Below are positions 27,483 through 52,582 of a stretch of DNA of 64,000 nt, piece after piece. The DNA is from Nitrospirota bacterium (GTDB taxonomy: Bacteria > Nitrospirota > UBA9217). Each line of letters starts with the position of its first letter. The stretch's first letter is position 1. The stretch is taken from positions 352,001 to 416,000 of the forward strand of contig CAWFSF010000002.1 of NCBI GenBank assembly GCA_963818475.1. The letters run 5' to 3'. The notes below the pieces were generated by a model. The model saw nothing but the letters and a program-made list of their open reading frames with translations, made no database searches and had not been told where the DNA came from. A program made the translations under genes and the position numbers.

Positions 27483-27863
27483 CTACTTCTTGCCCCCCAG
27501 GATCTGGTTGACCACGTTCAGGAGGTCTGCGGTCTGGATGGGTTTCGGGATGTAGGCATTGGCGCCGAGCGCGAGGCCGCGCTTCCGGTCCTCGTCGGCG
27601 CCCTCGGTCGTGATGATGATGATGGGGATGGTCTTGTGCGCCGGATCGTTGCGGACCATGGAGACGAGCTTCAGGCCGTCCATGATCGGCATGTTGATGT
27701 CGGTCAGGATGATGTCGAACTTCTGGGTCGACAGCTTCTTGAGCGCGTCGATGCCGTCGTTCGCCTCGACGATCTTGCTCCCCGGGATGCGCTTCAGGGC
27801 AAAGGAGATGAGCTGCCGCATCGTCGGGGAGTCTTCAACCACCAGAAAATTATACTCGGGCAT
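27483..27863 (-). CDS. cheY: CheY response regulator
   Basis: VVEDSPTMRQL, LTDINMPIMDG, ITTEG, YIPKPI. Confidence 0.93.
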   Translation of the reverse strand: MPEYNFLVVEDSPTMRQLISFALKRIPGSKIVEANDGIDALKKLSTQKFDIILTDINMPIMDGLKLVSMVRNDPAHKTIPIIIITTEGADEDRKRGLALGANAYIPKPIQTADLLNVVNQILGGKK

Positions 27864-27875
27864 TTCGACCTCCGT

Positions 27876-28682
27876 TTATTTTTCCTTCAGCAGATCGAGG
27901 AAGCTCTGGATCGTCGTGAGCTTGCGCTCCGACTGCGAATAGAGCTTTGACGAGAAGAGCGCCGTGGCCGCGTGGCCGGCGAGCATGGAGAACAGCTCGT
28001 AGTCCACGTTCGAGAAGGCCTGCTTCTGCACCAGCAGCTTGTAGATCGACGATCACGCCGATCACGTGCTCCTTGATCTTGAGCGGGATGCAGACGAGCG
28101 GGTGGATGATAATCGACGCCCGTGAGATCGGTGGGATCGCCTTCGCGGTAGATAGGCTTCGCCGGACTTGGCGCGCCTGCCGATGATGCCCTCGCCGAGC
28201 TTGACGCTCGGCCGCGGCCTCGGGGCCCATCCCTTCCTGGCCACGATCGTCAGCTCGTTCGTCTTTTCATCGAGCATCATGATCGAGAACTCCTCGGCGC
28301 CGATCAGGTTCATGACGATCTCGAGGATGATCTTGAGCGACTCGCTGAAGTCGAGGGTCGAGTGGAGCTGATAGCTGGCCACGTAGAGGTTCGCCAGGTT
28401 GTTGTTCTCGGCCTCGACCTCGATGTACCGGTTCGCGAAATCCTTGTTCTCTTCCTCCACCTCGCGGTAGCGGTCGAGCAGGTTCTTGTTCTCCTCCTCG
28501 AGGAACTTGATCCGCTCCTCCATGGAGTGCACCTTGAAGGTGCCGTCGCGGTCCGAGAACTTGGTGAGCTCTTCGAGCTTGGCGACCCGGTACCGCAGCT
28601 TCTCGTTCTCCTTGAGCAGCTCCTGGGTGAATTCCTCGCCCTTTTTGAAGACCTGGAGAAAGTCCTCGACCTTTTTCGACAT
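27876..28682 (-). CDS. coiled-coil + GAF domain protein
   Basis: N-terminal coiled coil (ELLKENEKLR..EEENKDFANRY), LYVASYQLHSTLD, GEGIIG, PLVCIPLKIKEHVIGVI; frameshifted. Confidence 0.85.
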
Positions 28683-28830
28683 CGATGCCGGTTTCCTTTT
28701 CCATCATACCCTCCTCGACTGCCGCGGTAATGAACGGAGCCATCTCTCCCCAACGAGAAATCTGTCCGGGGGCCGCCGGCGAGCTGCGGCGCCGTCAGCC
28801 ACATTGATACAGATATGTTGCCAATTATAG

Positions 28831-29954
28831 TCAGGAGTCCGACAAATTTATCAAGGACACATTTCTTTTTCTCATGACAGCCCAGTCCCGCTCCGTGCAC
28901 CGCCGCAGGATCTCGCCGGCCATGCTGCCGAGCGGCAGCACCTTGTCCACCGCGCCGGTCCGGATCGCCTCCTGCGGCATGCCGAAGATGACAGCGCTCT
29001 CCTCGCTCTCGGCAAGACACTGCCCTCCCTGCTTTTTGATGGCAGCTGCGCCCTCTGCGCCGTCACGCCCCATACCGGTCAGCACGACCCCCAGCGCTGC
29101 CGGCCCGCAGGCTTCGGCGACCGATACCATCATCCGGTCAGCCGAGGGCACATACTTGTCCTCCGGCGTCCGGGGCGCGAGCTCGACAACAAGCCGTTCG
29201 GTCCCTCTTTACGTACCAGCAGGTGATAACCGCCGGGCGCGATCAGCACCCGGCCGGGACGGATGCGGTCGCCGGCCTCGGCCTCGCTCACCATGAGCGC
29301 CGAGAGCTTGTTCAGCCGCTCGGCAAAGCTCCGGGTAAATCCCGGCGGCATGTGCTGCGAAATGACGATCCCGGCGCCGAATCGCTGCGGCAGCGCCGTG
29401 AGGATCGCCTGCAGCGCAGGCGGCCCGCCGGTGGAGGATGCGATAGCAACCACCTCGATCGGGCCCTGTTCCTGCGAAGCGTCGTCTTCCTTGCGGGTGC
29501 CGGCGACGGCTCTGGTCCCTGCGCCAGCAGGTCCATGGCCGACTGGACCTTGGACATTTCAGGTTCAGCACGGCATGCACCTTGGCCACCAGTTCGTCCC
29601 GGATGCCCCTCGATGCTCTGCGAGATCCGGGCTTCCGGCTTGGCCAGAAAATCGACGGCACCGAGTTCCAGGGCCCGGAACACGCTGCGGCTGTCCGAAC
29701 GGGACGAGAGGACCAGCACGGGCGTGGGCCGCTCCTTCATGAGCCAGCGCAGGAAGGTAAACCCGTCCATGTTCGGCATCTCAAGGTCGAGGGTGATGAC
29801 ATCGGGCTGGAGGCGCAGCGTCTTGGCGATGGCATCAATGCCGTCACGCGGCAACACCGACGACCTCGATGCCCGGATCGCGCTCGAGCATCTTGGTGAT
29901 GGTCATGCGGTTATATGCCGAGTCGTCGACGACCAGCACCTTGATCTTTTTCAT
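28831..29954 (-). CDS. cheB: chemotaxis methylesterase
   Basis: Receiver ([15 protein letters not shown]) plus [32 protein letters not shown]; frameshifted. Confidence 0.94.
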
Positions 29955-29982: not shown

Positions 29983-30844
29983 TCAAGTCCTGACCCGCGC
30001 CGGTTTCTGATAGACCATGTCGTTCTTGAGCGTGCGCAGCACGAAGGCGTTCGAGATGTTGATCAGCGACTCGGAGTGACCCAGGAGGAGATATCCGCCC
30101 TCGCGGAGCTTGTCGTGAAAACTTTCGATCACCTTTTTCTTTGCTTCACGGTCGAAATAGATGATCACGTTCCGGCAGAAAATGACGTCCATGTTGCTGA
30201 TCAGGCTGGTCTTATAGGGATCGAGCAGGTTCACGTAGCTGAACGATACGAGTTCGCGCACCGTGTCGATGATCCGGTAGTCGCCTTTGCCTTCTTCGAC
30301 AAAATATTTTTCCAGCATCTCGGGCGTCGAGACCCGGTGCGACGTCTTTTTGTAAACACCCTTGCGCGCCGTGTGCAGAACACGCTGATTGATGTCGCTC
30401 CCGAGGATCTCCACCTGCCAGTCGCGCCACCAGGCGCCGGACTCCAGCAGCAGCATGGCAATGGTGTAGGGCTCTTCGCCGGTGGAGCATCCGGCGCTCC
30501 AGATCCGGAGCGATTTGCGGTCTGCGAGGATCGTGCGCAGCTCGGGCAGGATCTCCTCGGAAAAGGCCCGGAGCTGCGGGCTCTCCCGAAAGAAGTAGGT
30601 TTCGTTCGTCGTCAGGTTGTCGACAAGGACCGCCAGTTCCTCGTCCCGCTTCCGGTCATAGCGGAGAAAGTGATAGTATTCCTCGAAGGTCTTGACCTGG
30701 CGCTGCTCGAGCCGGCGCGCCAGCCGGCGTTCAACGAGGAACTTGGAGCCGTCGTCGAAATAGATGCCGCAGTAGCCGTGGACCAAATCCCGCAAGAAGC
30801 CTGAAGACATCGTCGGGCAGCGGAATGTGTTGTTCTTCGAACAT
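29983..30844 (-). CDS. cheR: chemotaxis methyltransferase
   Basis: TTNETYFFRE, WSAGCSTGEEPYT, IFCRNVIIYF, LLGHSE. Confidence 0.96.
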
Positions 30845-32839
30845 CTATCTCCCCAGCGCTTCCGTCGCCGCCTGACGCACGGTCTTGTCCGCGTCGCCGG
30901 CCGCCATCGTTGCCAGGAGCGCCTCCAGTGCGGCATCCCGATGCTGCCTGACGATCTCGATCGCCGCCTTCCGCACGCTCCAATGCGGGTCCGACAACCG
31001 GGACACCACGGCCGGCCGGACAGCCTCCCAGGGGTAACCTGCCAGGGTCGTCAGCACGATCTTGCGCACCTCGGGGTCGTCGTGGTCGACAAGCCGCAGC
31101 AGGGCGGCCTGCGCCTCGCCGACCCGAAGCTTCCCCATGATCTCGACAAGCGCCAGAAGAAAGATATCGGTTGCCTTGTCAAGATAGGATGCCAGGAGCT
31201 GCCCGATCTGCGCGCTTCCGATCCTGCCGAGCCCGCGTGCCGCTGCAGCCCGGACCCAGAGGTCCTGGTCCTCGAGCAGCGAGATGAGCGCCTCAGAGAC
31301 ACCGGGCGCAGAAAGCCTGCCCAGGGCCTCGGCAGCAAGCATCCGGACCTCGGGGTCGTCGTCGGTCACTGCCAGCATGAGCGGCCGCAGCGACCGCTCT
31401 TCCGGCAGATTGCCCAGTGCATGGACAACGGCCTTGCGGACCTCGGCCTCCTCGTCCTTAAGCGCGAAAACCAGGGCGTCTGCAGCACTGGCGGTTGCGA
31501 ACTTCCCGAGCAGCAGCGCGATATTCCTGCGCAGCGGCACATCCTGCAGGGTATACTCCTTCACCAGCCGCTCGAGGACGGATTCGATCGCCGATCGCGG
31601 CCAGCGCCTGGATTGCCGATTCCTGCACGCTCTTGTATTCGTCCGTCAGAAGATCGAGCAGCGGCGACCACCGCCTTGCCGCTCCGCAGCCGGCCCAGCG
31701 CCTCTGCGGCCGTGCTGCGCACATGTCCGTTCTCGTCGTCCAGCAGCTCGATCAGCGGCTCTTCCGCCTCGGGCCTGCCGAATTCTCCCAGGACCCGGGC
31801 CACCGTCCGCCGGACCAGCGCGTTCTCGTCGGAAAGATAGGCCAGCAGCTGCGGTCCTGTCCCGGAAGGCATGGCAATGAGCGCCTGCGCCATCGGTTCT
31901 TCAAGCTCCTCTTCGTTAAGCAGGGCAAGCAGCTTCGGAATGGAATGCTCCCTGCCGGCCCAGCCGAGCACGGCAAGGCACGCCTTCTGCAGCTCACCGG
32001 TCGTGGTGCCGAGCATCTGTTCGGCAAGGGCCACGGTTTCGTCGCTCATGCCCTCGCGCACCGTCCGCGCGATCGTCAGCCGCGTCGCCTGACCGCTCTT
32101 CCGGTAAATCGCCAAAAGCGCGGCCATGGACACCTCGCGCACGATGCGGAGCGGATCGGAAAGGCCGGCGACCAGCGGCGCCAGCGTATTTTCGTTGCCG
32201 ATCTTGCCGAGCGCTTCCAGCACCGGCTCCCGGAGCGTGATGCGGCCCAGGGCGGCCATCAGCGGACCCAGCGCCCGTTCGTCCCCGATCTCGCCGAGCG
32301 CCTCGGCTGCGGCATAGTCGAGCCAGCCCTGATCGGCACGCTGCAGACATGCCAGCAGTGCGTCCACGGCCCGGGGGTCCCGGATCTTGCCCAGCGCCTC
32401 TGCCGATGCCACCCGGATATTTTCGTCGGGATCACTCAGCGCATTGATCAGAACGGGCACGGCCCGCTGGTCCCGGATGTCGCCGAGGATATCGACAATG
32501 AACTTCCGCACATCGGCATCAGTGGTGCCCAGTCATCGGCAGGAGGTCGTCGACCGCACCGGCGCCGATCTGCACCAGCGCTTCGATGGCCGCGTTTCGC
32601 GCGCCGGCATTATCATGGAGCGACAGGGTCTTGATCAGCTGCGCAATGACGCCGGCGCCGCCGATCTGCACCAGCGCCTCCACCGCCGTCTTGCGCACCC
32701 GCCAGTCCATGTCACCCAGGGCACGAAAGAGCAGCGGCACGGCCCCGGCCCCCGAGCGACCGAGATCGATGACCGCTTCACGGCGCTCTTCTGCGTCGGC
32801 ACTCTGCAGTTTTTTCCCGAGGAACTCCTGATCAGGCAT
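30845..32839 (-). CDS. long HEAT-repeat protein (frameshifted)
   Basis: Continuous D..WRVRK.A.EAL / VR..AAEALG repeats across ORFs 32519-32839, 31561-32511 and 30845-31564. Confidence 0.9.
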
Positions 32840-33359
32840 CGCCCGCCTCCGCCAATGCTTCCCGCTCCTGCCGGCTCAGGATCTTCGTAATATCAAGCAG
32901 GATCACCAGCCGATCACCTACCTTGCCCACGCCGTCGATAAAGTCCGCCTGCAGCCCCCGTGCTGCAGCCGGCGCCGGATCGATCTGCTGCCGCGGGATG
33001 TGCAGTACTTCGCGCACCCCATCGACCACCAGGCCGAGCAGGTCGGTGCCCGCGCTGCCGGGGCCGCGCACCGCTCCCCGGGTGATCAGCATGCGCACCT
33101 TCTTCGCCGGACCCGGCGCGAGCTCCAGTCCGAAGCGCTTTCGCAGGTCCACGACGGGAATGATCGCGCCGCGCAGGTTGACGACCCCCTCGATGAATTC
33201 CGGCATCCGGGGAAGCGTGGTGATGCGCAGCGGACGGACCACCTCGGCGATCGACCGGATGTCGAGGCCGAACTCCTCAGCGCCGACCTGGAAGGTAACG
33301 AGCTGCACGCTCTCTTCTGCGACGACGGCCTTTTTTTCTCTCGTGTCTCTCACGTTCAT
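32832..33359 (-). CDS. cheW: CheW coupling protein
   Basis: QLVTFQVGAEEFG, GVVNLRGAIIPVVDLR, GLVVDGV, LVILLD. Confidence 0.94.
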   Translation of the reverse strand: MNVRDTREKKAVVAEESVQLVTFQVGAEEFGLDIRSIAEVVRPLRITTLPRMPEFIEGVVNLRGAIIPVVDLRKRFGLELAPGPAKKVRMLITRGAVRGPGSAGTDLLGLVVDGVREVLHIPRQQIDPAPAAARGLQADFIDGVGKVGDRLVILLDITKILSRQEREALAEAGDA

Positions 33360-33413
33360 TGACCTGTATTAGCAACTCAGGAATTAGATTCCGACCAAAA
33401 TGGCAAGGCTATT

Positions 33414-33527
33414 TCTCGCAAAGGCGCAAAGGACGCGAAGGAAACCATACGTCGATAATTAATTGGTTTAAAACAAAAAGCAATCCTTGTCCCGGATTTT
33501 CTTGGCGACCTTTGCGCCTTTGCGAGA
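33414..33527. repeat. MITE-like element with 19-bp perfect inverted repeats
   Basis: TCTCGCAAAGGCGCAAAGG (33414-33432) and CCTTTGCGCCTTTGCGAGA (33509-33527) around an AT-rich core. Confidence 0.78.
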
Positions 33528-33554
33528 GACGCCGTTAACGTTGCATTATTGTTA

Positions 33555-35673: not shown

Positions 35674-35724
35674 GGTTCCTTTCCCTTCACCGGGGAGCCC
35701 GGGTTCCCGGCGGCGATGGCGCTG

Positions 35725-43628: not shown

Positions 43629-44653
43629 GTACGAGCCTCCTCTATCGTATGAAGTCTGCCTTTGCCGCTCGGCGAAGGCAGGTCGGAACCATGGATCTGG
43701 GAATGACAGTCGGAGCACCGCGTGTAGAATGCCTGCTTCTGCTCGGTCGTCGTGCTGCCGTCGATCGGGTGCGTCGGATGGCACTGGAGGCAGAGGAACG
43801 GCTCGCGCGCGTTCAGCAGGTTGTTGTTCACCGATCCGTGCGGGGTGTGGCAGGCGCGGCAGTCATCGGTCAGGTCGGCATGCTCATACACAAAGGGCCC
43901 TTCCTTCTCCGCGTGGCACTGCGTGCAGGTCGCCTTCACCGTATCGCGCCGCAGGCTCTTTTCCGCTGCGCTGCCGTGCGGGATCGTGGCAGTCGGTGCA
44001 GAAGACCTTCTTTTCCGGCACCGGGTGATGGTTCGGCAGGATGAAGGCCGCCTTCACTTCCTGGTGGCAGCGTTCGCACATCTCGGCCGTGTCCCGGATG
44101 CTTCACCTTCAGGTTGTGGCCGCCGTGGATCTTGTGGCAGTCGGAGCAGGAAACGTCGGCGATGTTGTGCGATGCCCGCGTTCCAGTTGTGCAGGTTGAA
44201 GGTTGCGTTGGCCGTGTGGCACTTGAGGCAGATGAGCGACTGGGCCTGCGCCGGAAGGTTCTTGATGTCGATGAAGGTCTTGTAGTTGCAGGCCGTCATC
44301 TTGCCCGCCTTGGCGTCGGCCTGCACTCTCTCCGGCGTGATCCCGTCGACGGCAAGGCTGCCCGGCCCGTGGCAGCTTTCGCAGTTCACGATCGGCATGC
44401 CCGATTCGCGCGAGAGCTGGGCGCCCATGGTCGAGAGGTCGAAATCCTTGCGCCGCTGGTCGTGCACATGACAGGCCGCGAGACAGGTGTCCGTGCCGAT
44501 ATAGTCGGCGTCGAGCCGGCCGACGATCAGCTTCTCGTACTCCTTGATCGGCAGGATCGGCCTCGCTTCCTTGAGCGCTGCGCATCCGGCGGCGAAGAAG
44601 ACGCCGATGATCCCGGCTGCCAGCCATTTCCTCCATTTCAGAAATTGTTCCAT
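43625..44653 (-). CDS. MtrA/DmsE-family decaheme c-type cytochrome with lipobox (frameshifted)
   Basis: FAAGC lipobox. Heme motifs CLAACH (Cx3CH), CESCH, CLKCH, CSDCH, CERCH, CTDCH, CTQCH, CRACH, CLQCH, CSDCH. EKEGPFVYEH, HTPHGS and IHGSD are DmsE-type signatures. Confidence 0.9.
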
Positions 44654-46869
44654 AAAAGAAAACCTCCTTTGTCCTGAGTGTGGGTTAGGGCCGTTCTGCT
44701 TCGATGCCGAGCGACACCGTTCGGCAGTAGATACGTTGTTGCCTCGGCACAATAAACAGGCGGCGTACCGCCGGCGCAGAGCGTGTCCAGCGTTGCGCCC
44801 ACCGAATAGTTCATGACATTGTCATCGAGCCAGTCGATGGAGTCATAAATGAGCCGCTTTGTGTACATCCGGTTGTGCACATAAGCCCCGGGATCATGCT
44901 CCAGCAGGTTGAAGTTGAAAGCCGCGCCCATGTTGTTCTGACCGGTGTCGGGAGTGCCTAGAACTGCAACAGCGACATTGGCCGTACAACTGTAAGCCCC
45001 TGCGACCCCTGACAGCGTAAAGGTTGAGCTGCCGCCGGTCTGCCAGTTCCTGACAGGTAGGTTTAATGTCGTCGTACAGTCCGAGGTTATCGCTTGGTTA
45101 TACGTAGTATCGAAACCCGGTGCAATGAAGAAGTAAGGGCTGTAGGGAGCAAAGAAGATCCCGCGAATTGCAAGTTGGTCCTTTAACGCTTCGATGGACT
45201 CGGTAAACTGAGCCTTCTGTTCTCTCACGAGGTCGAGGATAAGCGTCGTGGATGGGCCGTGGCAATTGAAGCAAACCTCGCTTGCGATGCCGGTGATCTG
45301 TCCGATCGAGGTTGTGCTCCGGGAGACCGGCAGGAACAGATGGTTCCCGTTCTTGTTCGGACGGGACATGTGGCAGCCGATGCAGGGACCGTTGGAGCCC
45401 GTATTCACAAAAGGCGGAAGCTTCTGCGTGGCTGCGGTGCCGATCTTATCATGGAGATATTCCGGAATGTTGTTGTAGGGCCGTCCGGGAAATTCGTAGC
45501 CCGTGACCGTGAAGACCTGTCCGCCGGCGGTCAGATAGTGGGAATTGATGAACCCGCTGTTTGCAAAGTTAAACGTGGTGATGGTTCCCACGGACAGCAG
45601 CGCCGGATCGTTCAAGCCTCTTACCGTGTCGCCACTTTCCCTGCCCGTGTGGCAGGCCATGCAGACGTTCGATCCTGCAAGGTCCGGGTAGGCGTGCGAG
45701 GCCTTGGCATAGATCTTGGGGGACGTGCCGTAATCATACTTCGCCGTGATCGCCCCGGGGTTCCTAAGAGCCCCCTTGTTGTCCGTGTGGCAACCGTTGC
45801 ATTTGAGCATCTCGGGTTTCCAGTTGAAAGAAGTAGTAGCACTGGAAAACTGCGAATTGAGGCCGCTGTTGATGTCGCTTGCGAGCTTGGCGTCCCCGGA
45901 CCTAAGCGCATCCGCGTAAGCAGTGTAGCCGGTGGTCGTGTGACAGCGCTGGCAAGCGTTGTATGAGCTTGCGCCCCAGGCATAGTGAGCCCAGGCGCCG
46001 CTGAAATAGCCGGTTCCGGTCGAGTTTAAGTTAAAAGGATTCTTGTCGGCATGCGCCGATTGCGCCCATTCTCTGTTCTGCGTGGGCGGTTTGTGAGGAT
46101 TGTGGCAGTTCACACAGACCTTCTTGTCGCTGTAGTCCGTTCTGTAAATACCCTGCGCATCCCGATAACTCATGGAATAGCCGGTAATGGCCTTGGTGCC
46201 GGAGTTTCCGATGCCAGTCCAGTCACCTGGAGTTGCAAAGTGCGTGTCCGTAATGCTGAACTGGTTGCCGCTTGCACTCAGCTCATCTGTTCCGCCGGGG
46301 TCATGCGCTGCTGGCGCGGTTCCTGTGCCCGTCGTGTCCAGCAACCCATGGCAGGAGGTGCACATGACGAACTGGGCTGAGGCCTGGACCGTGCCGGTGC
46401 CCCAGGTAACGGGAGGCGTGTCGGGAATAACAGAGATGGGCCCCATCCCGCCCGCACCCGCGTGCAGGCTTCCCCCGCCATGGCAGGTTTCGCAGCCGAT
46501 AACCGGTCGCAGGATGCCGGCAGCACCGAGATAGCCCGGGGTGAGCTTGCCGCTGTCCCCGTTCGGGTCATGGCAGGCCACACATTCGACTCCTCCTGCC
46601 TGTACCTGAGCAAACGTCGGACTCCCCACGCTGTACAGGTCACCCGGCGTACTCAGGTTCGCATGCTTGCTCGTCAGCCAGTCGGCGACCATCGCCGTAT
46701 GGCACGTGGCGCACGTGGCCAGTCCGACAGTCGGCGTTGATGCCGTTAGCACGTTTTCTGTTGCCGTGGGGGTATTCTCCTCTGTTGAGGAGCCGCACCC
46801 GGCGAGCAGGGCGGCCGCAGACATCACGGCCAGAAGCAGAAATACCATTCTTCGTTTATGCATATGCAA
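44638..46869 (-). CDS. OmcB/OmcC-like multiheme lipoprotein cytochrome c (10 CxxCH)
   Basis: LLAGC lipobox, ten CxxCH motifs, NSHYLTAGG and C-terminal GAAFNFNLLEHDPGAYVHNRMYTKRLIYDSIDW resembling Geobacter OmcB; 3' end approximate. Confidence 0.88.
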   Translation of the reverse strand: MHMHKRRMVFLLLAVMSAAALLAGCGSSTEENTPTATENVLTASTPTVGLATCATCHTAMVADWLTSKHANLSTPGDLYSVGSPTFAQVQAGGVECVACHDPNGDSGKLTPGYLGAAGILRPVIGCETCHGGGSLHAGAGGMGPISVIPDTPPVTWGTGTVQASAQFVMCTSCHGLLDTTGTGTAPAAHDPGGTDELSASGNQFSITDTHFATPGDWTGIGNSGTKAITGYSMSYRDAQGIYRTDYSDKKVCVNCHNPHKPPTQNREWAQSAHADKNPFNLNSTGTGYFSGAWAHYAWGASSYNACQRCHTTTGYTAYADALRSGDAKLASDINSGLNSQFSSATTSFNWKPEMLKCNGCHTDNKGALRNPGAITAKYDYGTSPKIYAKASHAYPDLAGSNVCMACHTGRESGDTVRGLNDPALLSVGTITTFNFANSGFINSHYLTAGGQVFTVTGYEFPGRPYNNIPEYLHDKIGTAATQKLPPFVNTGSNGPCIGCHMSRPNKNGNHLFLPVSRSTTSIGQITGIASEVCFNCHGPSTTLILDLVREQKAQFTESIEALKDQLAIRGIFFAPYSPYFFIAPGFDTTYNQAITSDCTTTLNLPVRNWQTGGSSTFTLSGVAGAYSCTANVAVAVLGTPDTGQNNMGAAFNFNLLEHDPGAYVHNRMYTKRLIYDSIDWLDDNVMNYSVGATLDTLCAGGTPPVYCAEATTYLLPNGVARHRSRTALTHTQDKGGFLLWNNF

Positions 46870-46948: not shown

Positions 46949-47665
46949 TTAGCTGCCTGCAACCTTGTCAATATCGAGCAGGATGAACAACCGGCCGTCC
47001 TTGCGAGCAATGCCGCGAAGAAACTCGATGCCATGCTCGACCGTTTCCGGCACTGCCCGCACCAGGTCGGGCGAAAGCTTCACCACACCCGTCACCCGGT
47101 CCACAATGAATCCTATCTTTTCATCGTCCACCGAGACCACCACCACCCGGGACTTTTCGTTCATGGCTGCCGGGCCGAGGCCCAGGCGCTTGCCGAGGTC
47201 GATGATGGTCAGCATCGTGCCGCGCAGCGAGCTCACGCCGAGGATATACTCCGGCGCGTTCGGCACCGGCGTCAGGCTCCACATCTTGAGCACTTCGTTC
47301 ACTTGTTCGACGGCAACCACATACTCTTCCCCGCTCAGCAGAAAGGCGACCATCTCGGTCTCGGCCGCTGGTTCCGCGGGCAATGCTGCTTCAGCAACTG
47401 GCGGTCCCGGTGCCGGCCCATCACTTCGCAGGATTTCGGCAGCCTCAGGCGCAGGTAAAGCAGCCTCGGCTGCAACCATCGGAGCAACCTGCACTGCAGG
47501 TTCAGGCTCAACCGGCACAGGGGGCGACGGGACAACTGCTTCCGCTGGGGCGCTTTCCGGCGCTGCGGGGACTGGCTGCTGTTCGACGGAAGCGGACAGT
47601 TCTTCCTTCTTTTTTTCCGCCTGCGCCCGCTCAGCCGCCTTTTTTCGTGCTGCCAGAATGTCCAT
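46949..47665 (-). CDS. cheW: CheW with Pro/Ala/Glu-rich N-terminal extension
   Basis: VAFLLSGEEY, LTPVPNAPEYILGVSSLRG, GFIVDRV, FILLDI. Confidence 0.93.
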   Translation of the reverse strand: MDILAARKKAAERAQAEKKKEELSASVEQQPVPAAPESAPAEAVVPSPPVPVEPEPAVQVAPMVAAEAALPAPEAAEILRSDGPAPGPPVAEAALPAEPAAETEMVAFLLSGEEYVVAVEQVNEVLKMWSLTPVPNAPEYILGVSSLRGTMLTIIDLGKRLGLGPAAMNEKSRVVVVSVDDEKIGFIVDRVTGVVKLSPDLVRAVPETVEHGIEFLRGIARKDGRLFILLDIDKVAGS

Positions 47666-47701
47666 GGTAACCTTTAATACAAGATTCAATAGTGGTAATT
47701 A

Positions 47702-47875: not shown

Positions 47876-48673
47876 CTACCCTAACTCCTTCACCACATCT
47901 TCAAGGATCTCCGCATTGATCATGGCAGCGCCCCGGCCGAAGCCCTCGAACAGGGCATTGCCGGCGATGATGTTGATGCGGCGCGGCACGCCGCCTGAAT
48001 GCTGATACAGGACTGCGATGGCTTCTTCGTCAAAGAGCGGTTCTGCCCTGCCTGCCACGCGGAGCCGGTGCTGGACGAACTCGCGGGTCTCGTCAAGGTC
48101 GAGCGGCCCCAGGTGATACTGCATCCCGATCCGCTGGCGAAGCGCCCGGTAGGGCTTTTTGTTCAGCCGCTCCCGGAGCTCGGTCTGGCCGATCAGCACC
48201 AGCGCCATGAGGTTGCGGTCGTCGAGCTGAAAGTTCGTGAGCAGCCGCAGCTCTTCGAAGGTCGCCTTGCCCGGAATAAGCTGCGCCTCGTCGATGATCA
48301 CGACGGTGCGCCGGCCTGCCTCAAAAAGCTCAAACAGCTTCGCATTGATCGCCTCGAGCACCTCATGCCGGTGCCTGCTTGCTTCTCCGATGCCCAGGCG
48401 GAGCGTAATGGTCCGCAGCAGCTGGGACGGCGAAAGCAGCGGATTGATGATCAGCACCGGATAATATCCGCTGTCCAGGGAATCGATGAGCGCCCGGGAC
48501 AGGGTCGTCTTGCCCGACCCGATATCGCCGGTCAACAGAACGATGTCCTGCTCTTCCACTGCAAGCTGGAGCCGCGCCAGCGCCTCGGCGTGCTTCCGCC
48601 CATGGAACAGGAAACGCGGGTCCGGCGTCTTGCTGAACGGCTTTTCCCTCAGTCCGTAAAAGTCTTCGTACAT
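47876..48673 (-). CDS. ExeA/GspA-family AAA ATPase
   Basis: YGLREKPFSKTPDPRF, GDIGSGKT, IIDEAQ, LIGQTEL, SGGVPRRIN. Confidence 0.93.
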   Translation of the reverse strand: MYEDFYGLREKPFSKTPDPRFLFHGRKHAEALARLQLAVEEQDIVLLTGDIGSGKTTLSRALIDSLDSGYYPVLIINPLLSPSQLLRTITLRLGIGEASRHRHEVLEAINAKLFELFEAGRRTVVIIDEAQLIPGKATFEELRLLTNFQLDDRNLMALVLIGQTELRERLNKKPYRALRQRIGMQYHLGPLDLDETREFVQHRLRVAGRAEPLFDEEAIAVLYQHSGGVPRRINIIAGNALFEGFGRGAAMINAEILEDVVKELG

Positions 48674-48724: not shown

Positions 48725-48858
48725 CTCAGGTCCATATACTATCCGCAGATTACGCAGATTACGCAGATTAAAAAACAAACCCGAATTATGTTATTTAAAA
48801 TCTGCGTCCATCTGCGAAATCTGCGAACAAAAGGGTTTTTCTCTGGTGTAACGCCCTT
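48725..48858. repeat. ~135-bp intergenic element, copy 2
   Basis: Same blocks and orientation as 47702-47845; internal CGCAGATTA x3 / AATCTGCG inverted units. Confidence 0.8.
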
Positions 48859-48894
48859 CATTCCGCAATCCGAAATCCGCATTCCGCAATTTCG

Positions 48895-50904
48895 TTACGA
48901 GTATTGTCTCGTAACTCCTGCTTTTCTGAACGCTCCTTCGATGAGCGACTCCACGTCCAGAACGAGCACAACGCCCCGCTTGTCGCCGAGCTCGGTGGCG
49001 CCGGCGATGCCGGGGATCTCCGCCAGCCGCTTCCCGAGCGGTTTGATCACGATCTCCTGCTGGTCTTTGAGCCCTTCCACCACGATCCCGAGACGGCGCT
49101 CCGCAAGGCCGACAAGAATGACATAGAACGATCCGAACCGCTGCTCCCCGGCCAAATTGAAGGCCCGCGTAAGCCGAAGCAGCGGAACGGTGTCTTCCCG
49201 GATGGCGATGACCTCGCGCGTTTCCACGGTCCGCACCTGGTCCGGTGTGGCCTGCAGGATCTCGAGCACGGCGTTGAGCGGGATGGCGAACACCTGGCCG
49301 GCCGCCTCGACGATCAGCGCCTTGATGATGGCGAGCGTGATCGGGAGCGTCAGCGTGAACCGTGTTCCCACGCCGAGCTCGGTCTCGATGTCGATCATAC
49401 CGGAGAGCCGCGAGACGTTCTTTTTCACGACGTCCATGCCCACGCCGCGGCCGGAGATCTCGGTCACCGTATCGCGGGTGGTGAAGCCCGGCAGGAAGAT
49501 AAGATCGAGAATGTCCTTGCGGTCGATCACCGGATCGAGCCCGTGGTCGCTCTCAAGGATGCCCTTTTCGCACGGCCTTGGCCAGGATCGCTTCGGCCGA
49601 TATGCCGGCGCCGTCGTCCTCGACCGTGATCACCACGTGGTTGCCGCGCGGGAACGCCGTGAGCCTGACGCTGCCCTGCTCCGGCTTCCCGACCTGCCGC
49701 CGCACCTCGGGCGGTTCGATGCCGTGATCGATGGCGTTCCTGATGAGGTGCATCAGCGGGTCCGCAAGGTCTTCGATCATGAGCTTGTCGAGCTCCGTCT
49801 CTTCGCCCTGAAGCTGCAGATCGATCTCCTTGCCCGCATCCTTGGCGTATTTGCGGACCACCGACGACAGGCGCGTAAAGATCTGGCCGATGGGCACCAT
49901 CCGGACCTCGAGGATGCCCTCCTGCAGTTCGTTCAGCTTCCGCTCGAGGCTCTTGTGCGCCTTGTGCAGCTCCACGGAGATGCCGGTATAGCCCTGGAGC
50001 TGCCGCAGTTCCTTCACGATCCTGCCGATGATGTTCTTGGTCAGATGCATCTCGCCGACGGTGTTCATGAGGCTGTCGAGGCGGAAGATGTCGACGCGCA
50101 CGGTATTGCTCACGGATTTGAGCATCGTTGCTTCGGGTTTCGCTTCTTCGGCCTTCGCGCCCTGGCGGTACGCCACCGGCTCGATCGAGACGTTCGGCAG
50201 GGCCAGGGCCGCGGTCAGCGCGGCGCGGTCCTTTGGCGTGCCGAGGACCATGGTAAAACCGATGCCGCTGCCCTGTGCGCCTGCGGTCGGCAGGGTGCAG
50301 ATGATCTCGCCGTTCTTCTTGAGCGGTCTCGTTCAGGGCCTTGATCCCGGCTTCGAAATCAGTGAGCTCGTACGACAACCTTGACCATGAACAGGTTCGT
50401 TCGCTCTCGGATGTTCTCCTTCAGCCGGTATTCCTCGTACTCCGTCAGGACCTGCAGGATCCCCCGGTCGAGATCGATCTGCTCCAGCAGCGACCGGCCC
50501 TCTGCTGCCGAGGGTTTTGCCTTCAGGACCGCGTCAATGCGTTCCATGGCCGGGGTGATGTCATCGCTCGGCTGGCGGGCAGCCACCTGCTGCACCAGCC
50601 GCCCGATGAGCGAAAGCGTCTCGAGCACCACATCCAGGGCCTGCCGGCCCAGAGCGACCTTGCCGAGCCTGAGTTCGTCCAGCAGGAACTCCAGCTTATG
50701 CGTGATGTCCGACGGGGCCTTGAGCCCGTACATCCCGGCCAGGCCCTTGAACGAATGAACGGCGCGGAACAGCGAGTTCAGGACGTCCGGGTCGGTGCGG
50801 CCCGCGGCCAGGGCGTTCTCGAGCGACAGCAGCGCCTGGTTGGCCGTCTCCAGGATGTCCTCCGCCTCTGCCAGAAAATCTTTTATGGGCCGGTCTGAAG
50901 TCAC
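48895..50904 (-). CDS. cheA: chemotaxis histidine kinase (frameshifted)
   Basis: Hpt LFRAVHSFKG, VRVD..LDSLMN, HLIRNAIDHG, EDDGAGI, FLPGFTT..SGRGVGMDVV, C-terminal CheW domain. Confidence 0.95.
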
Positions 50905-50998
50905 GCTATCGCTCCCGATCAAATGCGGATCAAATGTGGAATGCACGCATATGTCCTACAGGCTTTCTCGCTCCGAACTCCGAACTCCAGGCTCCGCA

Positions 50999-51373
50999 CT
51001 ACGTACCACTCCCCAGCACCTTCCCTACCGCAGCCATGAGGTCGGCCCTGGTAAACGGCTTCACCACATAGCCGGCCGCGCCGAGCGCCAGGCCGCGCTT
51101 CACGTCCTCCTCGGTCTTTTCCGTGCTGACGATGATCAGCGGGATGTCCCGGTAGGCGGGGTTGGACTTCACAAAGCCGATCAGTTCAAGTCCGTTGATG
51201 TCGGGCATGTTGATGTCGGTGATGATGAGGTCGAAGCGGCGCGTCGGGAGCGTTTTCAGGGCCTCGAATCCGTTCGCCGCCTCGACAACGTAGAATCCGC
51301 CGGCCTCCTCGAGCGACACGCGGATCATCGAGCGGATGGCCTTGGAATCCTCCACGATGAGAATGTTCTTCAT
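50999..51373 (-). CDS. cheY: CheY response regulator
   Basis: MKNILIVEDS, ITDINMPDING, VSTE, YVVKPF. Confidence 0.92.
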   Translation of the reverse strand: MKNILIVEDSKAIRSMIRVSLEEAGGFYVVEAANGFEALKTLPTRRFDLIITDINMPDINGLELIGFVKSNPAYRDIPLIIVSTEKTEEDVKRGLALGAAGYVVKPFTRADLMAAVGKVLGSGT

Positions 51374-52582
51374 CTTCTCTCCTTCTGCAGTTCCGCGATC
51401 CGCTTTTCGAGCAGCGCCTTTTCGAGCGCCATTCCCGCCTGGTTCATGAAGATCTCGAGCGTGTCGACGCCCCTGATCGGACTGCCGTTCGGGCAGGTTG
51501 TCGCCGTAGACGACCAGGACCACCTTGCTGTCGACGACCAGGGGAATGGCAAGCACCGGATCGGGCTGCGCGCCGCCGAGCTCGTTGGCAAGATAATTAT
51601 TGCATTCGTTCGATTCGAGCGGCCCCAGATAGCTGCGCCGGTTCTCGATGACGGTCAGGAACAGGGACGGTTTGTTGAGCGGGATCTTGATGTTGCGCAC
51701 GACCTGGTCGGCCGAGCGCCCCTTCAGCTCGATGCCGAACTGGCCGAGCCCCCGCACCTCGTCCTTCTTGACCATGAACAGAACAGCGCGGTTCACGACC
51801 TCGCTGGCATAGCGCAGGATCAGCAGCGTGACTTCGGAAGTCGCCGTGGGAAACCGAAGCTCATCGAACATGGACCTGAGCGTCGAGATCTCTCGCTGCG
51901 GCGCTTCGGTCTCGATGCGGGTGCGGAATTCTTCTTTGGCGGGTTCGTAGCTGACATGCGCCGGAGCAGCAGGCGGCGGCAGGGGCCGCAGCCGGCGGCT
52001 GGCGGCGTTGGCGGCGCTGCAGGGGCCGGGGCTGCTTTGGACGCCGGGGAAGGCGCCGATTTCCGGCTTTCGTGGCGCCGCTCGTCGAGGATCCGGGTGC
52101 CCTCCATCAGCAGATACTCGGCGCTGATGCCGCGACTTGAGGAGGAACTCCTGGGTGTCGATCTCGATCTTGTCCTTCGGCGCGATCTCGCCGAGCTCAA
52201 AATTGAAAAATCCTTCTTCCCAGGCCAGCAGGTCGTAAATGATCTCCTCGATCTGCTTGCGCACCACGGTCTGGAGGGTCTCCGGCGGGACCAGCCCCAT
52301 CTCGACAAGGATCATGCCGAGCGGGGTATCGGTCTCCTTTTTCTGGCGCGCCAGCGCCTGCGCAAGGCCCGGTGCGGTCAGCATGCCCTGCGACACCAGG
52401 ATGTTGCCCAGCGAGTCGCGGATGCCGTCACTGGCGGCCTGGATGACCTGGCCGTTCTTGAACACAACCATCCCCATTCCCTTGCGGCTTCGCACAACAA
52501 GGGTGCCGGTCTTTTTACTTAGACTGATGATCTGGAAAATATCCGGTAAGGCAAGATCTTCCAGCCTGCCGACAAGGCTCAT
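51370..52582 (-). CDS. DUF4388 (PatA-like N-terminal) + GAF-like domain protein
   Basis: MSLVGRLEDLALPDIFQIISLSKKTGTL, LLAWEEGFFNF, YLLMEG, YASEVVNRAVLF, VYGDN; natural end ..AELQKERR* overlaps the cheY start. Confidence 0.85.

What the first reader, a model, noticed from the sequence alone, without database searches (positions are those of the whole stretch)
27483..52582. Porin-cytochrome electron conduit encoded inside a Che5-like chemosensory cluster
Seen, all on the minus strand with short gaps or overlaps: DUF4388-cheY-cheA-ExeA ATPase-cheW-[OmcB-like decaheme lipoprotein, MtrA-like decaheme, MtrB-like porin, binding protein, 3 MCPs]-cheW-HEAT-cheR-cheB-GAF-cheY. Known (from recall): the flanking order matches the Geobacter sulfurreducens Che5 cluster, whose CheA/CheW were implicated in electrode colonisation and cytochrome regulation, but conduits are normally encoded elsewhere. 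Inference: a dedicated system for sensing extracellular redox partners (minerals, electrodes, partner cells), in an organism that also has the Wood-Ljungdahl pathway.
Basis: partly seen in the sequence, partly recalled or inferred. Interest (0 to 1): 0.82.

Follow-up and report, generated by a model that had tools for sequence, protein, structure and literature searches.

The report
Electron conduit inside a chemosensory operon
A set of genes for an outer-membrane "wire" that passes electrons to or from minerals sits in the middle of a bacterial chemosensory gene cluster, and the arrangement is kept in many related species, which suggests that these bacteria sense and respond to solid redox partners.

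Summary
As given, about 10 of the 18 genes are broken by single-base frameshifts, 17-19 of them in the porin. Housekeeping genes elsewhere in the window are broken too, and the frame-corrected genes have no in-frame stops, so I read this as assembly indel noise. The same order, PATAN-CheY-CheA-ATPase-CheW-[decahaem lipoprotein, MtrA-family decahaem, MtrB/PioB-like barrel, binding protein, MCPs]-CheW-HEAT, occurs in 26 of 38 species-level loci fetched through the cytochrome, all labelled Nitrospirota. That rules out misassembly and chance. Porin, binding protein and the first MCP overlap at their stop and start codons. The flanks are colinear with G. sulfurreducens GSU2224-GSU2212, which include esnB/esnC. 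There only a cheY lies between the two cheW genes, and a cytochrome gene abuts the terminal cheY. That the system senses extracellular electron exchange is inference. I found no description of this arrangement in print.

The parts
51373..52582 (-). DUF4388 (PATAN-type) protein with an MshEN-type c-di-GMP-binding motif; 4 frameshifts in the window
   Evidence: PF14332 E 6e-31. NF053729 scores 47 bits against a cut-off of 38 at residues 58-110; the same motif is in L009, L030 and L005. Frameshifts.
50999..51373 (-). CheY-like receiver; reads as fused to the DUF4388 ORF in the window, a separate gene in L009
   Evidence: PF00072 E 2.7e-27. L009 has 391-aa and 123-aa genes. Frame-aware alignment finds no frameshift.
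48895..50946 (-). CheA (Hpt, dimerisation, HATPase, CheW-like domains) spread over three frames
   Evidence: 3-4 frameshifts and 0 in-frame stops over 694 aligned codons against L003. The intact 664-aa homologue in L009 carries all four domains.
47876..48673 (-). AAA_22 (ExeA-like) ATPase, intact
   Evidence: PF13401 E 9e-23. TIGR03015 PEP-CTERM-associated ATPase, 243.5 bits, below the cut-off of 324.5. Same position as GSU2221.
46949..47689 (-). CheW with a ~100-aa Pro/Ala-rich N-terminal extension, intact
   Evidence: PF01584 E 6.8e-35; translation.
44638..46869 (-). Outer-surface decahaem lipoprotein: lipobox LLAGC, 10 CxxCH, one MtrC/MtrF domain II/IV. A frameshift after V719 adds a false C-terminal tail
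   Evidence: PF22113, 63.3 bits. (invariant C25 and the haem motifs). (P0001 is identical over 717 aa, then ends 8 aa later).
43642..44653 (-). MtrA/DmsE-family decahaem cytochrome with a lipobox (FFAAGC); 4 frameshifts
   Evidence: Window pieces score 46.5 and 128.4 bits to TIGR03508. The L009 homologue scores 242 bits against a cut-off of 192.2 and E 2e-41 to PDB 6r2q chain A..
41695..43628 (-). Outer-membrane barrel related to the MtrB/PioB and GSU2204 (omcL) families; 17-19 single-base frameshifts, 0 in-frame stops after correction
   Evidence: 80-83% aa identity to intact P0198, P0187 and P0197 over about 620 codons. (NF041027). (32 of 60 relatives hit PF11854). (hhalign probability 77%).
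40757..41701 (-). Periplasmic binding protein (PF04392) with a signal peptide. Its start overlaps the porin stop by 7 nt, and its stop overlaps the MCP3 start (ATGA)
   Evidence: The ATGA overlap with MCP3 is present in 17 of 17 loci examined.
38666..40760 (-). MCP3: TM, periplasmic domain (sCache_3_2 in the L009 homologue), TM, HAMP, MCP signalling domain; 1 frameshift
35687..38575 (-). MCP2: HAMP and signalling domain, then a C-terminal PhnD-like binding domain with no intervening membrane segment
   Evidence: PF12974 E 1.7e-58 at residues 705-936. (same architecture in L009)..
33555..35673 (-). MCP1 (HAMP and signalling domain), 1 frameshift near 34617
32832..33359 (-). Second CheW, intact
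   Evidence: PF01584 E 3.2e-35.
30848..32875 (-). HEAT / PBS-lyase-like repeat protein in three frames
   Evidence: Same position as GSU2216.
29983..30936 (-). CheR methyltransferase
   Evidence: PF01739 E 8.6e-61 and PF03705.
28831..29902 (-). CheB (receiver and methylesterase) in three frames
27850..28703 (-). Coiled-coil protein with a probable broken GAF domain
   Evidence: GAF_3 E 0.035, GAF_2 E 0.063, GAF E 0.28, first half of the domain only. GSU2213 GAF occupies the same position in Geobacter.
27483..27863 (-). Terminal CheY-like receiver
   Evidence: PF00072 E 2.2e-28.
33400..33540 (-). Long REP-like hairpin in the MCP1-to-CheW2 spacer (31-nt arms)
   Evidence: I1. (-56.9 kcal/mol, z -6.3). 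No U-run follows.
48745..48894 (-). REP-like hairpins in the CheA-to-ATPase spacer
   Evidence: (-53 kcal/mol, z -5.8).

Best explanation
This is one chemosensory gene cluster of the Geobacter 'Esn / class-40H' type. It holds a DUF4388 regulator, CheY, CheA, an ExeA-like ATPase and CheW at one end, and CheW, HEAT, CheR, CheB, GAF and CheY at the other. In one clade of Nitrospirota a 13.5-kb block lies between the two cheW genes. The block encodes an Mtr-type outer-membrane electron conduit (surface decahaem lipoprotein, MtrA-family decahaem, MtrB/PioB-like barrel), a periplasmic binding protein and two or three chemoreceptors.

Proposed working. The conduit carries electrons across the outer membrane to or from solids. 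The binding protein and the Cache-type receptor, which are made in step with the barrel through overlapping stop and start codons, report a periplasmic consequence of that traffic to CheA through the CheW proteins. CheR and CheB give adaptation. Phosphorylated receiver proteins, together with the c-di-GMP-binding DUF4388 protein, the HEAT protein and the ATPase, then change surface behaviour (attachment, pilus-type motility or matrix production) rather than flagellar rotation.

Shown: gene content, order, family membership, conservation of the linkage, and coupling of the reading frames. Inferred: the direction of electron flow, what the receptors detect, and the output.
For: Gene content and order.

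Conservation. 26 of 38 loci fetched through the outer cytochrome have CheW directly upstream and the MtrA-like and barrel genes downstream. 23 of those 26 also show DUF4388/REC, CheA and the ATPase; the other 3 are cut by the locus end. 25 of 26 show the binding protein and 23 of 26 an MCP. The identity of the outer cytochrome to the window is 37-78% in these loci. They form one starred clade of 24 che-linked rows plus L018, and the label needs only 2 changes on the tree against 8.1 in shuffles.

Coupling. In the window the gaps are about 31 nt (outer cytochrome to MtrA-like) and 13 nt (MtrA-like to barrel); the barrel and binding-protein genes overlap by 7 nt, and the binding-protein and MCP3 genes share ATGA. 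The ATGA overlap is present in 17 of 17 loci examined. No promoter-like or terminator-like site and no significant hairpin lie in the CheW-to-cytochrome spacer of the window.

Families. The MtrA-like protein scores 242 bits against the TIGR03508 cut-off of 192.2 and E 2e-41 to 6r2q_A. For the barrel, 32 of 60 relatives hit PF11854, NF041027 scores 78-128 bits, and hhalign to a bona fide MtrB from L032 gives probability 77%.

Adaptation enzymes and three MCPs are present. The c-di-GMP motif in the DUF4388 protein scores above its cut-off in 4 of 4 proteins tested.

Geobacter. The flanks are colinear with GSU2224-GSU2212. Deletions of esnB (cheW, GSU2220) and esnC (cheA, GSU2222) impair electrode growth but not Fe(III) oxide reduction, and GSU2221 (ATPase) is also a Tn-seq hit (passages). 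A GSU2224 insertion mutant was isolated in a screen for oxygen-tolerant, more strongly aggregating mutants; its authors propose that losing the regulator triggers matrix and biofilm formation (passages).
Against: There is no direct evidence for any signalling link. None of the MCP or binding-protein sequences examined carries CxxCH, and no Cys is invariant in the alignments of the binding protein and of the MCP3 sensor region. The binding protein's nearest named family is a tryptophan-binding SBP (125 bits, cut-off 390), so the receptors may detect an ordinary soluble ligand.

Strong REP-like hairpins sit in four spacers of the cluster (z -3.3 to -6.3), and in several relatives also in the CheW-to-cytochrome spacer. 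They could partition the transcripts.

The homologous Geobacter cluster works without an internal conduit or MCP genes, and its mutants still reduce Fe(III) oxide.

In this window the barrel gene carries 17-19 frameshifts, about nine times the density of its neighbours. Decay of the conduit in this particular genome is therefore not excluded.

The barrel fails the TIGR03509 cut-off (22 bits against 240). The outer cytochrome has no sequence match to any solved structure.
Confidence: 0.5

Rival explanations
1. The conduit is cargo, not a sensor. The che-like system is a regulatory pathway with an 'alternative cellular function' that controls production, export or assembly of the conduit and of extracellular matrix, as is suspected for Geobacter cluster 5 / Esn. 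The conduit genes are simply in the operon they are regulated with, and the MCPs sense unrelated cues.
For: Tran et al. 2008 report, as unpublished observations, that cluster 5 knock-outs change extracellular matrix expression (section 12 read). esn mutants fail on electrodes. For the GSU2224 insertion mutant, its authors propose that loss of the regulator triggers exopolysaccharide expression and aggregation. The ATPase is nearest to a PEP-CTERM/exopolysaccharide-associated ATPase family (243-255 bits, below the cut-off). The DUF4388 protein carries a c-di-GMP-binding motif.
Against: This reading does not explain why a periplasmic binding protein and a Cache-type MCP are translationally coupled to the barrel gene in 17 of 17 loci. 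It also does not explain why the Nitrospirota version gained MCP genes together with the conduit, while the Geobacter cluster has none. CheR and CheB point to temporal sensing with adaptation.
Confidence: 0.28
2. The linkage has no functional meaning. A cassette of conduit, binding protein and MCP genes was inserted once between the two cheW genes and has been inherited vertically. The receptors sense a soluble organic ligand through the binding protein.
For: The linkage has a single origin on the cytochrome tree. The binding protein resembles TrpX-type amino-acid binding proteins. The sensors have no haem motifs. Related outer cytochromes work in ordinary clusters without che genes.
Against: The order is kept across 26 species whose outer cytochromes have diverged to 37-78% identity, with the same tight junctions. 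The homologous Geobacter cluster also has a cytochrome gene joined to it by 4-nt coordinate overlaps and has an electrode phenotype.
Confidence: 0.15
3. The feature is dead or artefactual in this genome. Either the conduit genes are pseudogenes (the barrel especially), or the many frameshifts show an assembly too poor to trust.
For: 17-19 frameshifts fall in 1.93 kb of the barrel gene, against about 1 per kb in neighbouring genes. No identical intact barrel was found in the protein collection; the best hit has 80% identity.
Against: Frameshifts also split formate dehydrogenase, ACS/CODH, CdhD, folE, panB and rlmN elsewhere in the window. After frame correction the barrel (623 codons), CheA (694) and the MtrA-like gene (330) have 0 in-frame stops and no multi-codon deletions, and they keep 80-93% identity to intact relatives. 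An independent contig gives the outer cytochrome 100% identical over 717 aa with the expected short C-terminus. Gene order is confirmed by 26 other assemblies.
Confidence: 0.07

Closest known systems
Geobacter sulfurreducens che cluster GSU2212-GSU2224 (Esn genes esnB/esnC; 'class 40H'; probably Tran et al.'s cluster 5, beta group)
   Same: The order is the same: regulator, cheY, cheA, ATPase, cheW ... cheW, HEAT, cheR, cheB, GAF, cheY. The cluster is implicated in electrode colonisation. A cytochrome c gene (GSU2210) is joined to its terminal cheY through GSU2211 by 4-nt coordinate overlaps. omcK/omcL (GSU2203/2204), the nearest NCBIfam families of the window's MtrA-like and barrel proteins, lie five genes further on.
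   Different: Geobacter has only cheY (GSU2219) between the two cheW genes, an extra cheY (GSU2217), and no mcp, binding-protein or conduit genes inside the cluster. Orthology of the individual proteins was not tested, because no Geobacter sequence was at hand. That GSU2212-2224 is Tran's 'cluster 5' is recalled; the readable text does not give locus tags.
Shewanella MtrCAB outer-membrane conduit (solved complex 6R2Q)
   Same: Gene order is surface cytochrome, periplasmic decahaem, barrel. The MtrA-like protein passes the DmsE/MtrA family cut-off and matches 6r2q chain A at E 2e-41. The surface protein is a decahaem lipoprotein with an MtrC/MtrF domain II/IV. That 6r2q chain A is MtrA and that mtrCAB is the Shewanella order are recalled; the PDB label printed was a different name.
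   Different: The barrel only borders the MtrB/PioB models. The surface cytochrome has no sequence match to solved MtrC/OmcA and no hit to an OmcA/MtrC family model. The MtrA-like protein has a lipobox and one CxxxCH motif. The Shewanella operon is not inside a che cluster.
Shewanella 'congregation' / energy taxis toward insoluble electron acceptors
   Same: The behaviour links outer-membrane cytochromes with chemotaxis signalling (PMC5789149; only the start of its abstract in a search listing was seen).
   Different: In Shewanella the genes are unlinked (recalled). Here they share an operon-like block.
Geobacter porin-cytochrome clusters (OmaB/OmbB/OmcB, ExtABCD and others)
   Same: They have the same three-part logic. 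Relatives of the window's outer cytochrome outside the clade sit in such clusters: L018 has porin, multihaem and outer cytochrome; L032 has MtrA and MtrB. An Atlas lead at 0.83 points to an 'OmcB family' cluster (a lead only).
   Different: No family-level match to OmcB was obtained. The periplasmic partner here is MtrA/DmsE-type.
PatA/PixG-type PATAN-receiver regulators of pilus-based taxis, and the Myxococcus Che7 HEAT-repeat partner (both recalled, not tested)
   Same: A DUF4388 protein next to a receiver at the head of a che operon, and a HEAT/PBS-lyase-like protein inside the cluster.
   Different: No comparison was run. The DUF4388 protein here carries an inserted MshEN-type c-di-GMP motif.

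Membership tests
MtrA/DmsE-family periplasmic decahaem cytochrome (TIGR03508) | Score at or above the curated family cut-off | tested here: met
   The intact homologue in L009 scores 242 bits against a cut-off of 192.2. The window's two larger pieces score 46.5 and 128.4 bits.
MtrA/DmsE-family periplasmic decahaem cytochrome (TIGR03508) | Ten haem-binding motifs | tested here: inconclusive
   Most intact homologues have 9 CxxCH. A conserved CLAACH (CxxxCH) is visible in the window translation. Whether it binds a tenth haem is untested.
MtrA/DmsE-family periplasmic decahaem cytochrome (TIGR03508) | Sequence similarity to the MtrA chain of a solved MtrCAB complex | tested here: met
   phmmer E 2e-41 to 6r2q_A, residues 52-327 of 336. 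The identity of the chain as MtrA is recalled.
MtrB/PioB outer-membrane barrel (PF11854 / TIGR03509) | Pfam gathering score of 23 bits | tested here: inconclusive
   L030 scores 23.2 bits, L009 21.6 bits and the window piece 16 bits. 32 of 60 relatives match at E <= 1e-3, best 4.5e-9.
MtrB/PioB outer-membrane barrel (PF11854 / TIGR03509) | NCBIfam TIGR03509 cut-off of 240 bits | tested here: not met
   22.1 bits. The best NCBIfam match is the GSU2204 (omcL) family at 78-128 bits, below its cut-off of 350.
MtrB/PioB outer-membrane barrel (PF11854 / TIGR03509) | Profile homology to a bona fide member | tested here: inconclusive
   hhalign of A2 against the L032 MtrB (PF11854, 443 bits) gives probability 77%, E 2e-5, 272 columns.
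MtrB/PioB outer-membrane barrel (PF11854 / TIGR03509) | Large beta-barrel fold that sheathes the decahaem | not testable with these tools
A crude amphipathic-strand count was not discriminating.
OmcA/MtrC surface decahaem lipoprotein | Lipobox and ten CxxCH | tested here: met
   LLAGC and 10 CxxCH. C25 and the haem motifs are invariant in 21 sequences.
OmcA/MtrC surface decahaem lipoprotein | MtrC/MtrF pentahaem domain (PF22113) | tested here: met
   63.3 bits against a cut-off of 30, one copy, residues 247-415.
OmcA/MtrC surface decahaem lipoprotein | Whole-protein match to the OmcA/MtrC family or to a solved MtrC/OmcA | tested here: not met
   No NCBIfam OmcA/MtrC hit at E <= 0.01. No PDB sequence hit at E <= 0.01.
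Chemosensory pathway with adaptation | CheA, CheW, MCP, CheR, CheB and CheY all present | tested here: met
   for the window; for the intact homologues.
Geobacter GSU2212-GSU2224 type cluster | Order: regulator, cheY, cheA, ATPase, cheW ... cheW, HEAT, cheR, cheB, GAF, cheY | tested here: met
   Window order compared with the annotation table and passages. GAF in the window is weak.
Geobacter GSU2212-GSU2224 type cluster | No mcp genes inside the cluster (beta group of Tran et al.) | tested here: not met
   Three MCP genes are inside. Tran et al., section 12.
Geobacter GSU2212-GSU2224 type cluster | Orthology of CheA, CheW and the ATPase; chemosensory class (Wuichet-Zhulin); MCP heptad class 40H | not tested
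   No Geobacter sequences or class models were at hand. A motif search for the MCP hairpin tip found nothing usable.

The most novel reading that the evidence does not exclude
The Mtr-type conduit is itself the antenna of the chemosensory system, an 'electroreceptor'. The redox state of a solid outside the cell is relayed through the decahaem chain to the periplasmic end of the MtrA-like protein. There the co-translated binding protein and the Cache-type MCP read it, so the cell measures the potential of minerals, electrodes or partner cells and adapts through CheR and CheB. The Geobacter Esn cluster with its adjoining cytochrome GSU2210 would be a reduced form of the same device.
Probability: 0.2. 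Interest if true: 0.9.

Novelty: new variant of a known kind. Interest (0 to 1): 0.72.

Why it matters
How bacteria find and commit to insoluble electron acceptors or donors is unresolved. In Shewanella and Geobacter the chemosensory genes and the conduits involved are scattered, so the link rests on phenotypes. Here the two are in one conserved, tightly packed block in at least 26 species of uncultured Nitrospirota that also carry the Wood-Ljungdahl pathway.

The block names specific candidates for the missing sensor: a binding protein and a Cache-type receptor coupled to the barrel gene. It also gives a genomic reason why the homologous Geobacter Esn genes matter for electrodes. The parts are few and defined, so the idea can be tested by reconstitution even though the organisms are not in culture.

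The window also carries a caution. It has many single-base indels, so gene calls made from it alone would report the conduit as missing or broken.

Tried and rejected
- Complex prediction for the binding protein with the MCP3 sensor domain (alignments A3, A4) was unavailable. Nothing was folded.
- The Atlas did not hold the window's cytochrome. A stored homologue gave only leads below 0.9.
- PDB sequence searches found nothing for the barrel or the outer cytochrome.
- I looked for an identical intact barrel to prove assembly error. The best hit has 80% identity.
- I tested whether frameshift sites cluster at GATC, as a methylation-linked base-calling error would. 8 of 33 sites lie within 8 nt, against 4.8 expected, p about 0.1, so this was dropped.
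- A crude amphipathic beta-strand count gave 15 segments against 11.5 +/- 2.7 in shuffles, which is not informative.
- A sigma-54 pattern search gave 21 matches against 29.9 expected. Rfam at gathering scores gave 0 hits. There are no tRNA genes.
- RNAalifold on the CheW-to-cytochrome spacers of 21 sequences found no consensus structure, only a conserved GGAGG before the ATG.
- The TGCGGAAT-type hairpins seen there in relatives also occur in other spacers, so they are REP-like and not a specific switch.
- A regular expression for the MCP hairpin tip, meant to set the heptad class, matched nothing.
- Literature searches for a conduit inside a che cluster found no such description. Hits that looked promising concerned Cyc2 or were irrelevant.
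- Figure S6 of Tran et al. is in a PDF that cannot be read here, and the readable supplement has no locus tags.
I therefore could not search for 'insert-free' versions of this che cluster or fetch the Geobacter region.

Full report
**What is in the sequence.**
- DUF4388 plus receiver (51002-52621)
- CheA domains (48898-50955)
- an AAA_22 ATPase (47879-48679)
- CheW (46952-47698)
- a 743-aa lipoprotein with ten CxxCH motifs and one MtrC/MtrF domain II/IV (44638-46869)
- multihaem pieces (43628-44821)
- a region with one weak MtrB_PioB hit (41.7-43.6 kb)
- a PF04392 binding protein (40760-41701)
- three MCPs (33558-40760)
- a second CheW, HEAT repeats, CheR, CheB, a gene without a clear domain, and a final receiver (27486-27875)

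The GAF call is weak. Only half-domain hits at E 0.035-0.28 appear in 28065-28703.

**The genes are broken in the window as given.**
CheA, CheB and the HEAT gene are each spread over three frames, and the porin region falls into at least seven pieces. I aligned intact homologue proteins to the window DNA with a frameshift-aware dynamic programme.

| Gene | Single-base frameshifts |
|---|---|
| barrel (porin) | 17-19 |
| MtrA-like | 4 |
| CheA | 3-4 |
| DUF4388 | 4 |
| outer cytochrome | 1 |
| MCP3 | 1 |
| MCP2 | 1-2 |
| MCP1 | 1 |
| ATPase, both CheW, binding protein, first receiver | 0 |

After correction the barrel (623 codons), CheA (694) and the MtrA-like gene (330) contain no in-frame stop and no multi-codon deletion. 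They are 83%, 93% and 82% identical to intact relatives. An independent contig encodes the outer cytochrome 100% identical over 717 residues and then ends 8 residues later, whereas the window runs on in another frame. Housekeeping genes elsewhere in the window are split between frames in the same way: formate dehydrogenase, ACS/CODH beta, CdhD, folE, panB and rlmN.

I therefore read the breaks as indel noise of the assembly. The barrel has about nine per kb, against about one per kb in its neighbours. I could not find an identical intact copy (best 80%), so decay of that gene in this one genome is not excluded. A link of the error sites to GATC was not significant.

**The linkage is conserved.**
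The outer cytochrome has 735 relatives at E <= 1e-3 among the candidates scored. It returned 38 loci. I mapped the window's protein pieces onto them with tblastn.
- 26 of 38 have CheW directly upstream and the MtrA-like and barrel genes downstream, in the window's order.
- 23 of those 26 also show DUF4388/receiver, CheA and the ATPase; the other three are cut by the locus end.
- 25 of 26 show the binding protein and 23 of 26 an MCP.
- 9 reach the second CheW and the HEAT gene within the 10-kb flank.
- L019 has CheA, ATPase, CheW and the cytochrome, then its contig ends. L012 and L035 are too short to judge.
- 9 loci have a cytochrome homologue (27-43% identity) and none of CheA, CheW or the ATPase: L018, L025, L028, L029, L031-L034 and L037. 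L037 has only 306 bases upstream. L032 shows one weak receiver-like match about 7 kb upstream, and L025 a weak DUF4388 protein.

All 26 linked loci are labelled Nitrospirota, Nitrospirae, Nitrospiraceae or Nitrospiria. They include both short-read and long-read assemblies. In most of them every gene is a single ORF of the expected size.

I built a tree of 33 outer cytochromes. L003, L007 and L020 were left out as frameshifted, and L012, L019 and L035 as partial. The 24 che-linked rows fall in one starred clade that also holds the unlinked L018. The label needs two changes, against 8.1 in shuffles. Misassembly, chance and 'no other genome' are thus excluded.

**What the conduit proteins are.**
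I used the intact L009 and L030 versions.
- The periplasmic cytochrome passes the DmsE/MtrA family cut-off (242 bits against 192.2). It matches chain A of PDB 6r2q at E 2e-41. I recall that chain as MtrA of the MtrCAB complex; the label printed by the tool was a different name. It has nine CxxCH plus a conserved CxxxCH, and, unlike what I recall for MtrA, a lipobox.
- The barrel is about 640 aa with a signal peptide, no haem motif and a C-terminal ...KW. It scores at the edge of PF11854 (23.2 and 21.6 bits against 23). 32 of 60 relatives match that model at E <= 1e-3. It fails TIGR03509 (22 bits against 240). Its best NCBIfam match is the GSU2204 family (78-128 bits, cut-off 350), which a 2026 review lists as an MtrB/PioB-family barrel (table passage). 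A profile comparison with a bona fide MtrB from L032 gives probability 77%.
- The outer cytochrome has one MtrC/MtrF pentahaem domain but no whole-protein match to solved structures or to an OmcA/MtrC family model.

I therefore call this an Mtr-type conduit by its parts and its gene order. I do not call it a member of the MtrCAB family in the strict sense. Outside the clade, relatives of the outer cytochrome sit in ordinary clusters: porin, multihaem and cytochrome in L018, and MtrA plus MtrB in L032.

**How tightly the sensory genes are joined to it.**
In the window the spacers run as follows:

| Junction | Spacer |
|---|---|
| CheW to outer cytochrome | 79-85 nt |
| outer cytochrome to MtrA-like | about 31 nt |
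| MtrA-like to barrel | 13 nt |
| barrel to binding protein | 7-nt overlap |
| binding protein to MCP3 | ATGA overlap |

The ATGA overlap is present in 17 of 17 loci where both genes are intact. By the ORF coordinates, the barrel to binding-protein junction is a 7-nt overlap in most loci and a gap of at most 12 nt in the rest.

MCP3 has two membrane segments around a periplasmic domain, which is sCache_3_2 in L009. MCP2 carries a C-terminal PhnD-like domain that follows the signalling domain without a membrane segment, so it should be cytoplasmic. None of the MCPs examined has a CxxCH.

The consensus scan found no promoter-like or terminator-like site in the CheW-to-cytochrome spacer, and that spacer does not fold better than shuffles (z +0.4). 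Strong hairpins made of short tandem repeats sit in four spacers: CheA to ATPase, ATPase to CheW, MCP3 to MCP2, and MCP1 to CheW2 (z -3.3 to -6.3). Relatives have similar elements in several spacers, sometimes including the one before the cytochrome. They look REP-like. None is followed by a U-run, and what they do to the transcripts is open.

**The Geobacter counterpart.**
Passages and a supplementary table of Chan et al. 2017 (PMC5585712), with a passage of PMC8242959, give the G. sulfurreducens order: GSU2224 response regulator, 2223 cheY, 2222 cheA (esnC), 2221 ATPase, 2220 cheW (esnB), 2219 cheY, 2218 cheW, 2217 cheY, 2216 HEAT-like, 2215 cheR, 2214 cheB, 2213 GAF, 2212 cheY. The window's flanks are colinear with this. 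Where Geobacter has one cheY between the two cheW genes, the window has the conduit, the binding protein and three MCPs.

Tran et al. [quoted passage not shown] They also report, as unpublished observations, that cluster 5 knock-outs alter extracellular matrix. That cluster 5 is GSU2212-2224 is my recollection.

Deletion of esnB or esnC impairs growth on electrodes but not Fe(III) oxide reduction, and the ATPase is also a Tn-seq hit.

The same table shows something I did not find discussed. GSU2210, a 2.1-kb cytochrome c gene, is joined to the terminal cheY through the small GSU2211 by two 4-nt coordinate overlaps. omcK and omcL (GSU2203 and GSU2204, the latter annotated 'outer membrane channel cytochrome c') lie five genes further on, beyond rpsT, holA, lptE and leuS. 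These are the nearest NCBIfam families of the window's MtrA-like and barrel proteins. Both are induced with hematite and magnetite (table passage). The association of this che cluster with cytochromes is therefore not confined to the Nitrospirota clade. What is special here is a complete conduit plus receptors inside the cluster.

**How it most likely works.**
I commit to functional coupling. This is a chemosensory pathway with adaptation (CheR and CheB) whose receptors are made together with an Mtr-type conduit and which monitors extracellular electron exchange.

The output more likely affects surface behaviour than flagella, for four reasons:
- The first gene is a DUF4388 protein with an MshEN-type c-di-GMP-binding motif, above its cut-off in 4 of 4 proteins tested.
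- The ATPase is nearest to an exopolysaccharide-system ATPase family.
- A HEAT-repeat protein is present.
- The Geobacter mutants have electrode, aggregation or biofilm phenotypes.

Content, order, families, conservation and frame coupling are shown. The direction of electron flow, the stimulus and the output are inferred.

The main rival is that the conduit is cargo regulated by the pathway. A weaker rival is that the linkage is a historical accident and the receptors sense a soluble ligand; the binding protein is nearest to a tryptophan-binding family, below its cut-off.

**Novelty.**
Five full-text searches found no description of a conduit inside a che cluster: Nitrospirota with EET, chemotaxis and multihaem; Nitrospirota with porin-cytochrome and Wood-Ljungdahl; MtrCAB with MCP, gene cluster and CheA; Nitrospirota with MtrA, MtrB and MtrC; and porin-cytochrome with CheW. 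The library does not cover subscription journals. Both halves are known kinds, and their conserved fusion is a new variant.

**What stayed unchecked.**
- The chemosensory and heptad classes.
- Orthology to the Geobacter proteins.
- Versions of the cluster without the insert.
- Metagenome and viral collections, which were closed.
- The reads behind this window.

Noticed in passing
window 1-27000 and 27483-52582: Single-base frameshifts are window-wide. Outside the cluster one Pfam family is split between overlapping frames in formate dehydrogenase (1260-3912), the NuoF-like gene (4031-5375), ACS/CODH beta (6536-8848), CdhD (8855-10193), panB (15089-15839), folE (20101-20674) and rlmN (25909-26912). 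The 2022-aa ORF at 57453-63518 is nevertheless intact.
   Followed up: partly
window 1-20000, minus strand: A Wood-Ljungdahl gene cluster is present: FTHFS, formate dehydrogenase, HydBC-like subunits, ACS/CODH beta, corrinoid protein subunits, a pterin-binding methyltransferase, CooC-like, MTHFR with its C-terminal partner, and an HdrA/MvhD-like gene.
   Followed up: no
window 33400-33540, 38520-38665, 47690-47839, 48745-48894, 27140-27289: REP-like hairpins built from short tandem repeats sit in the longer spacers of the cluster (z -3.3 to -6.3), and none is followed by a U-run. Related repeats of TGCGGAAT type occur in several spacers of the homologous clusters.
   Followed up: partly
window 52133-52582; L009, L030, L005: The DUF4388 (PATAN-type) protein carries an inserted MshEN-type c-di-GMP-binding motif (NF053729, 45-47 bits against a cut-off of 38) in 4 of 4 proteins tested.
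   Followed up: partly
window 35687-38575; L009 18739-21594: MCP2 has a PhnD-like periplasmic-binding-protein fold domain fused after the signalling domain with no membrane segment between them, so the domain should be cytoplasmic. MCP2 is absent from, or shorter in, some relatives.
   Followed up: partly
window 23044-25777, minus strand: A second small signalling module lies beyond rlmN: a HEAT protein (CpcE/NblB-like), a stand-alone PhnD-like binding protein, and two receivers. It echoes the HEAT gene and the PhnD-like domain of MCP2 inside the cluster.
   Followed up: no
window 43642-44653 and homologues: The MtrA-family decahaem has a conserved lipobox (FFAAGC) and a CxxxCH in place of one CxxCH. 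I recall MtrA as a soluble periplasmic protein.
   Followed up: no
G. sulfurreducens GSU2203-GSU2212 (supplement of PMC5585712): The cytochrome c gene GSU2210 is joined to the terminal cheY (GSU2212) through GSU2211 by two 4-nt coordinate overlaps. omcK and omcL lie five genes further on. The table gives no strand.
   Followed up: partly
window 57453-63518, minus strand: A 2022-aa ORF carries Cep192/ASH/HYDIN-type Ig-like domains and is probably a giant surface protein.
   Followed up: no
L019 (3553-base contig): A contig labelled Betaproteobacteria carries CheA, the ATPase, CheW and the outer cytochrome at 48-77% identity to the window, then ends. This could be a mis-binned contig or a transfer.
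   Followed up: no
window 28000-52000 against the flanks: The cluster has G+C of 0.62-0.65, against 0.52-0.56 in the immediate flanks. GC skew turns positive over the cytochrome and porin genes at 42-46 kb.
   Followed up: no
window 52885-54440; L009 3709-4299: A DUF520 gene lies directly upstream of the cluster in both the window and L009. LolA follows it in the window.
   Followed up: no
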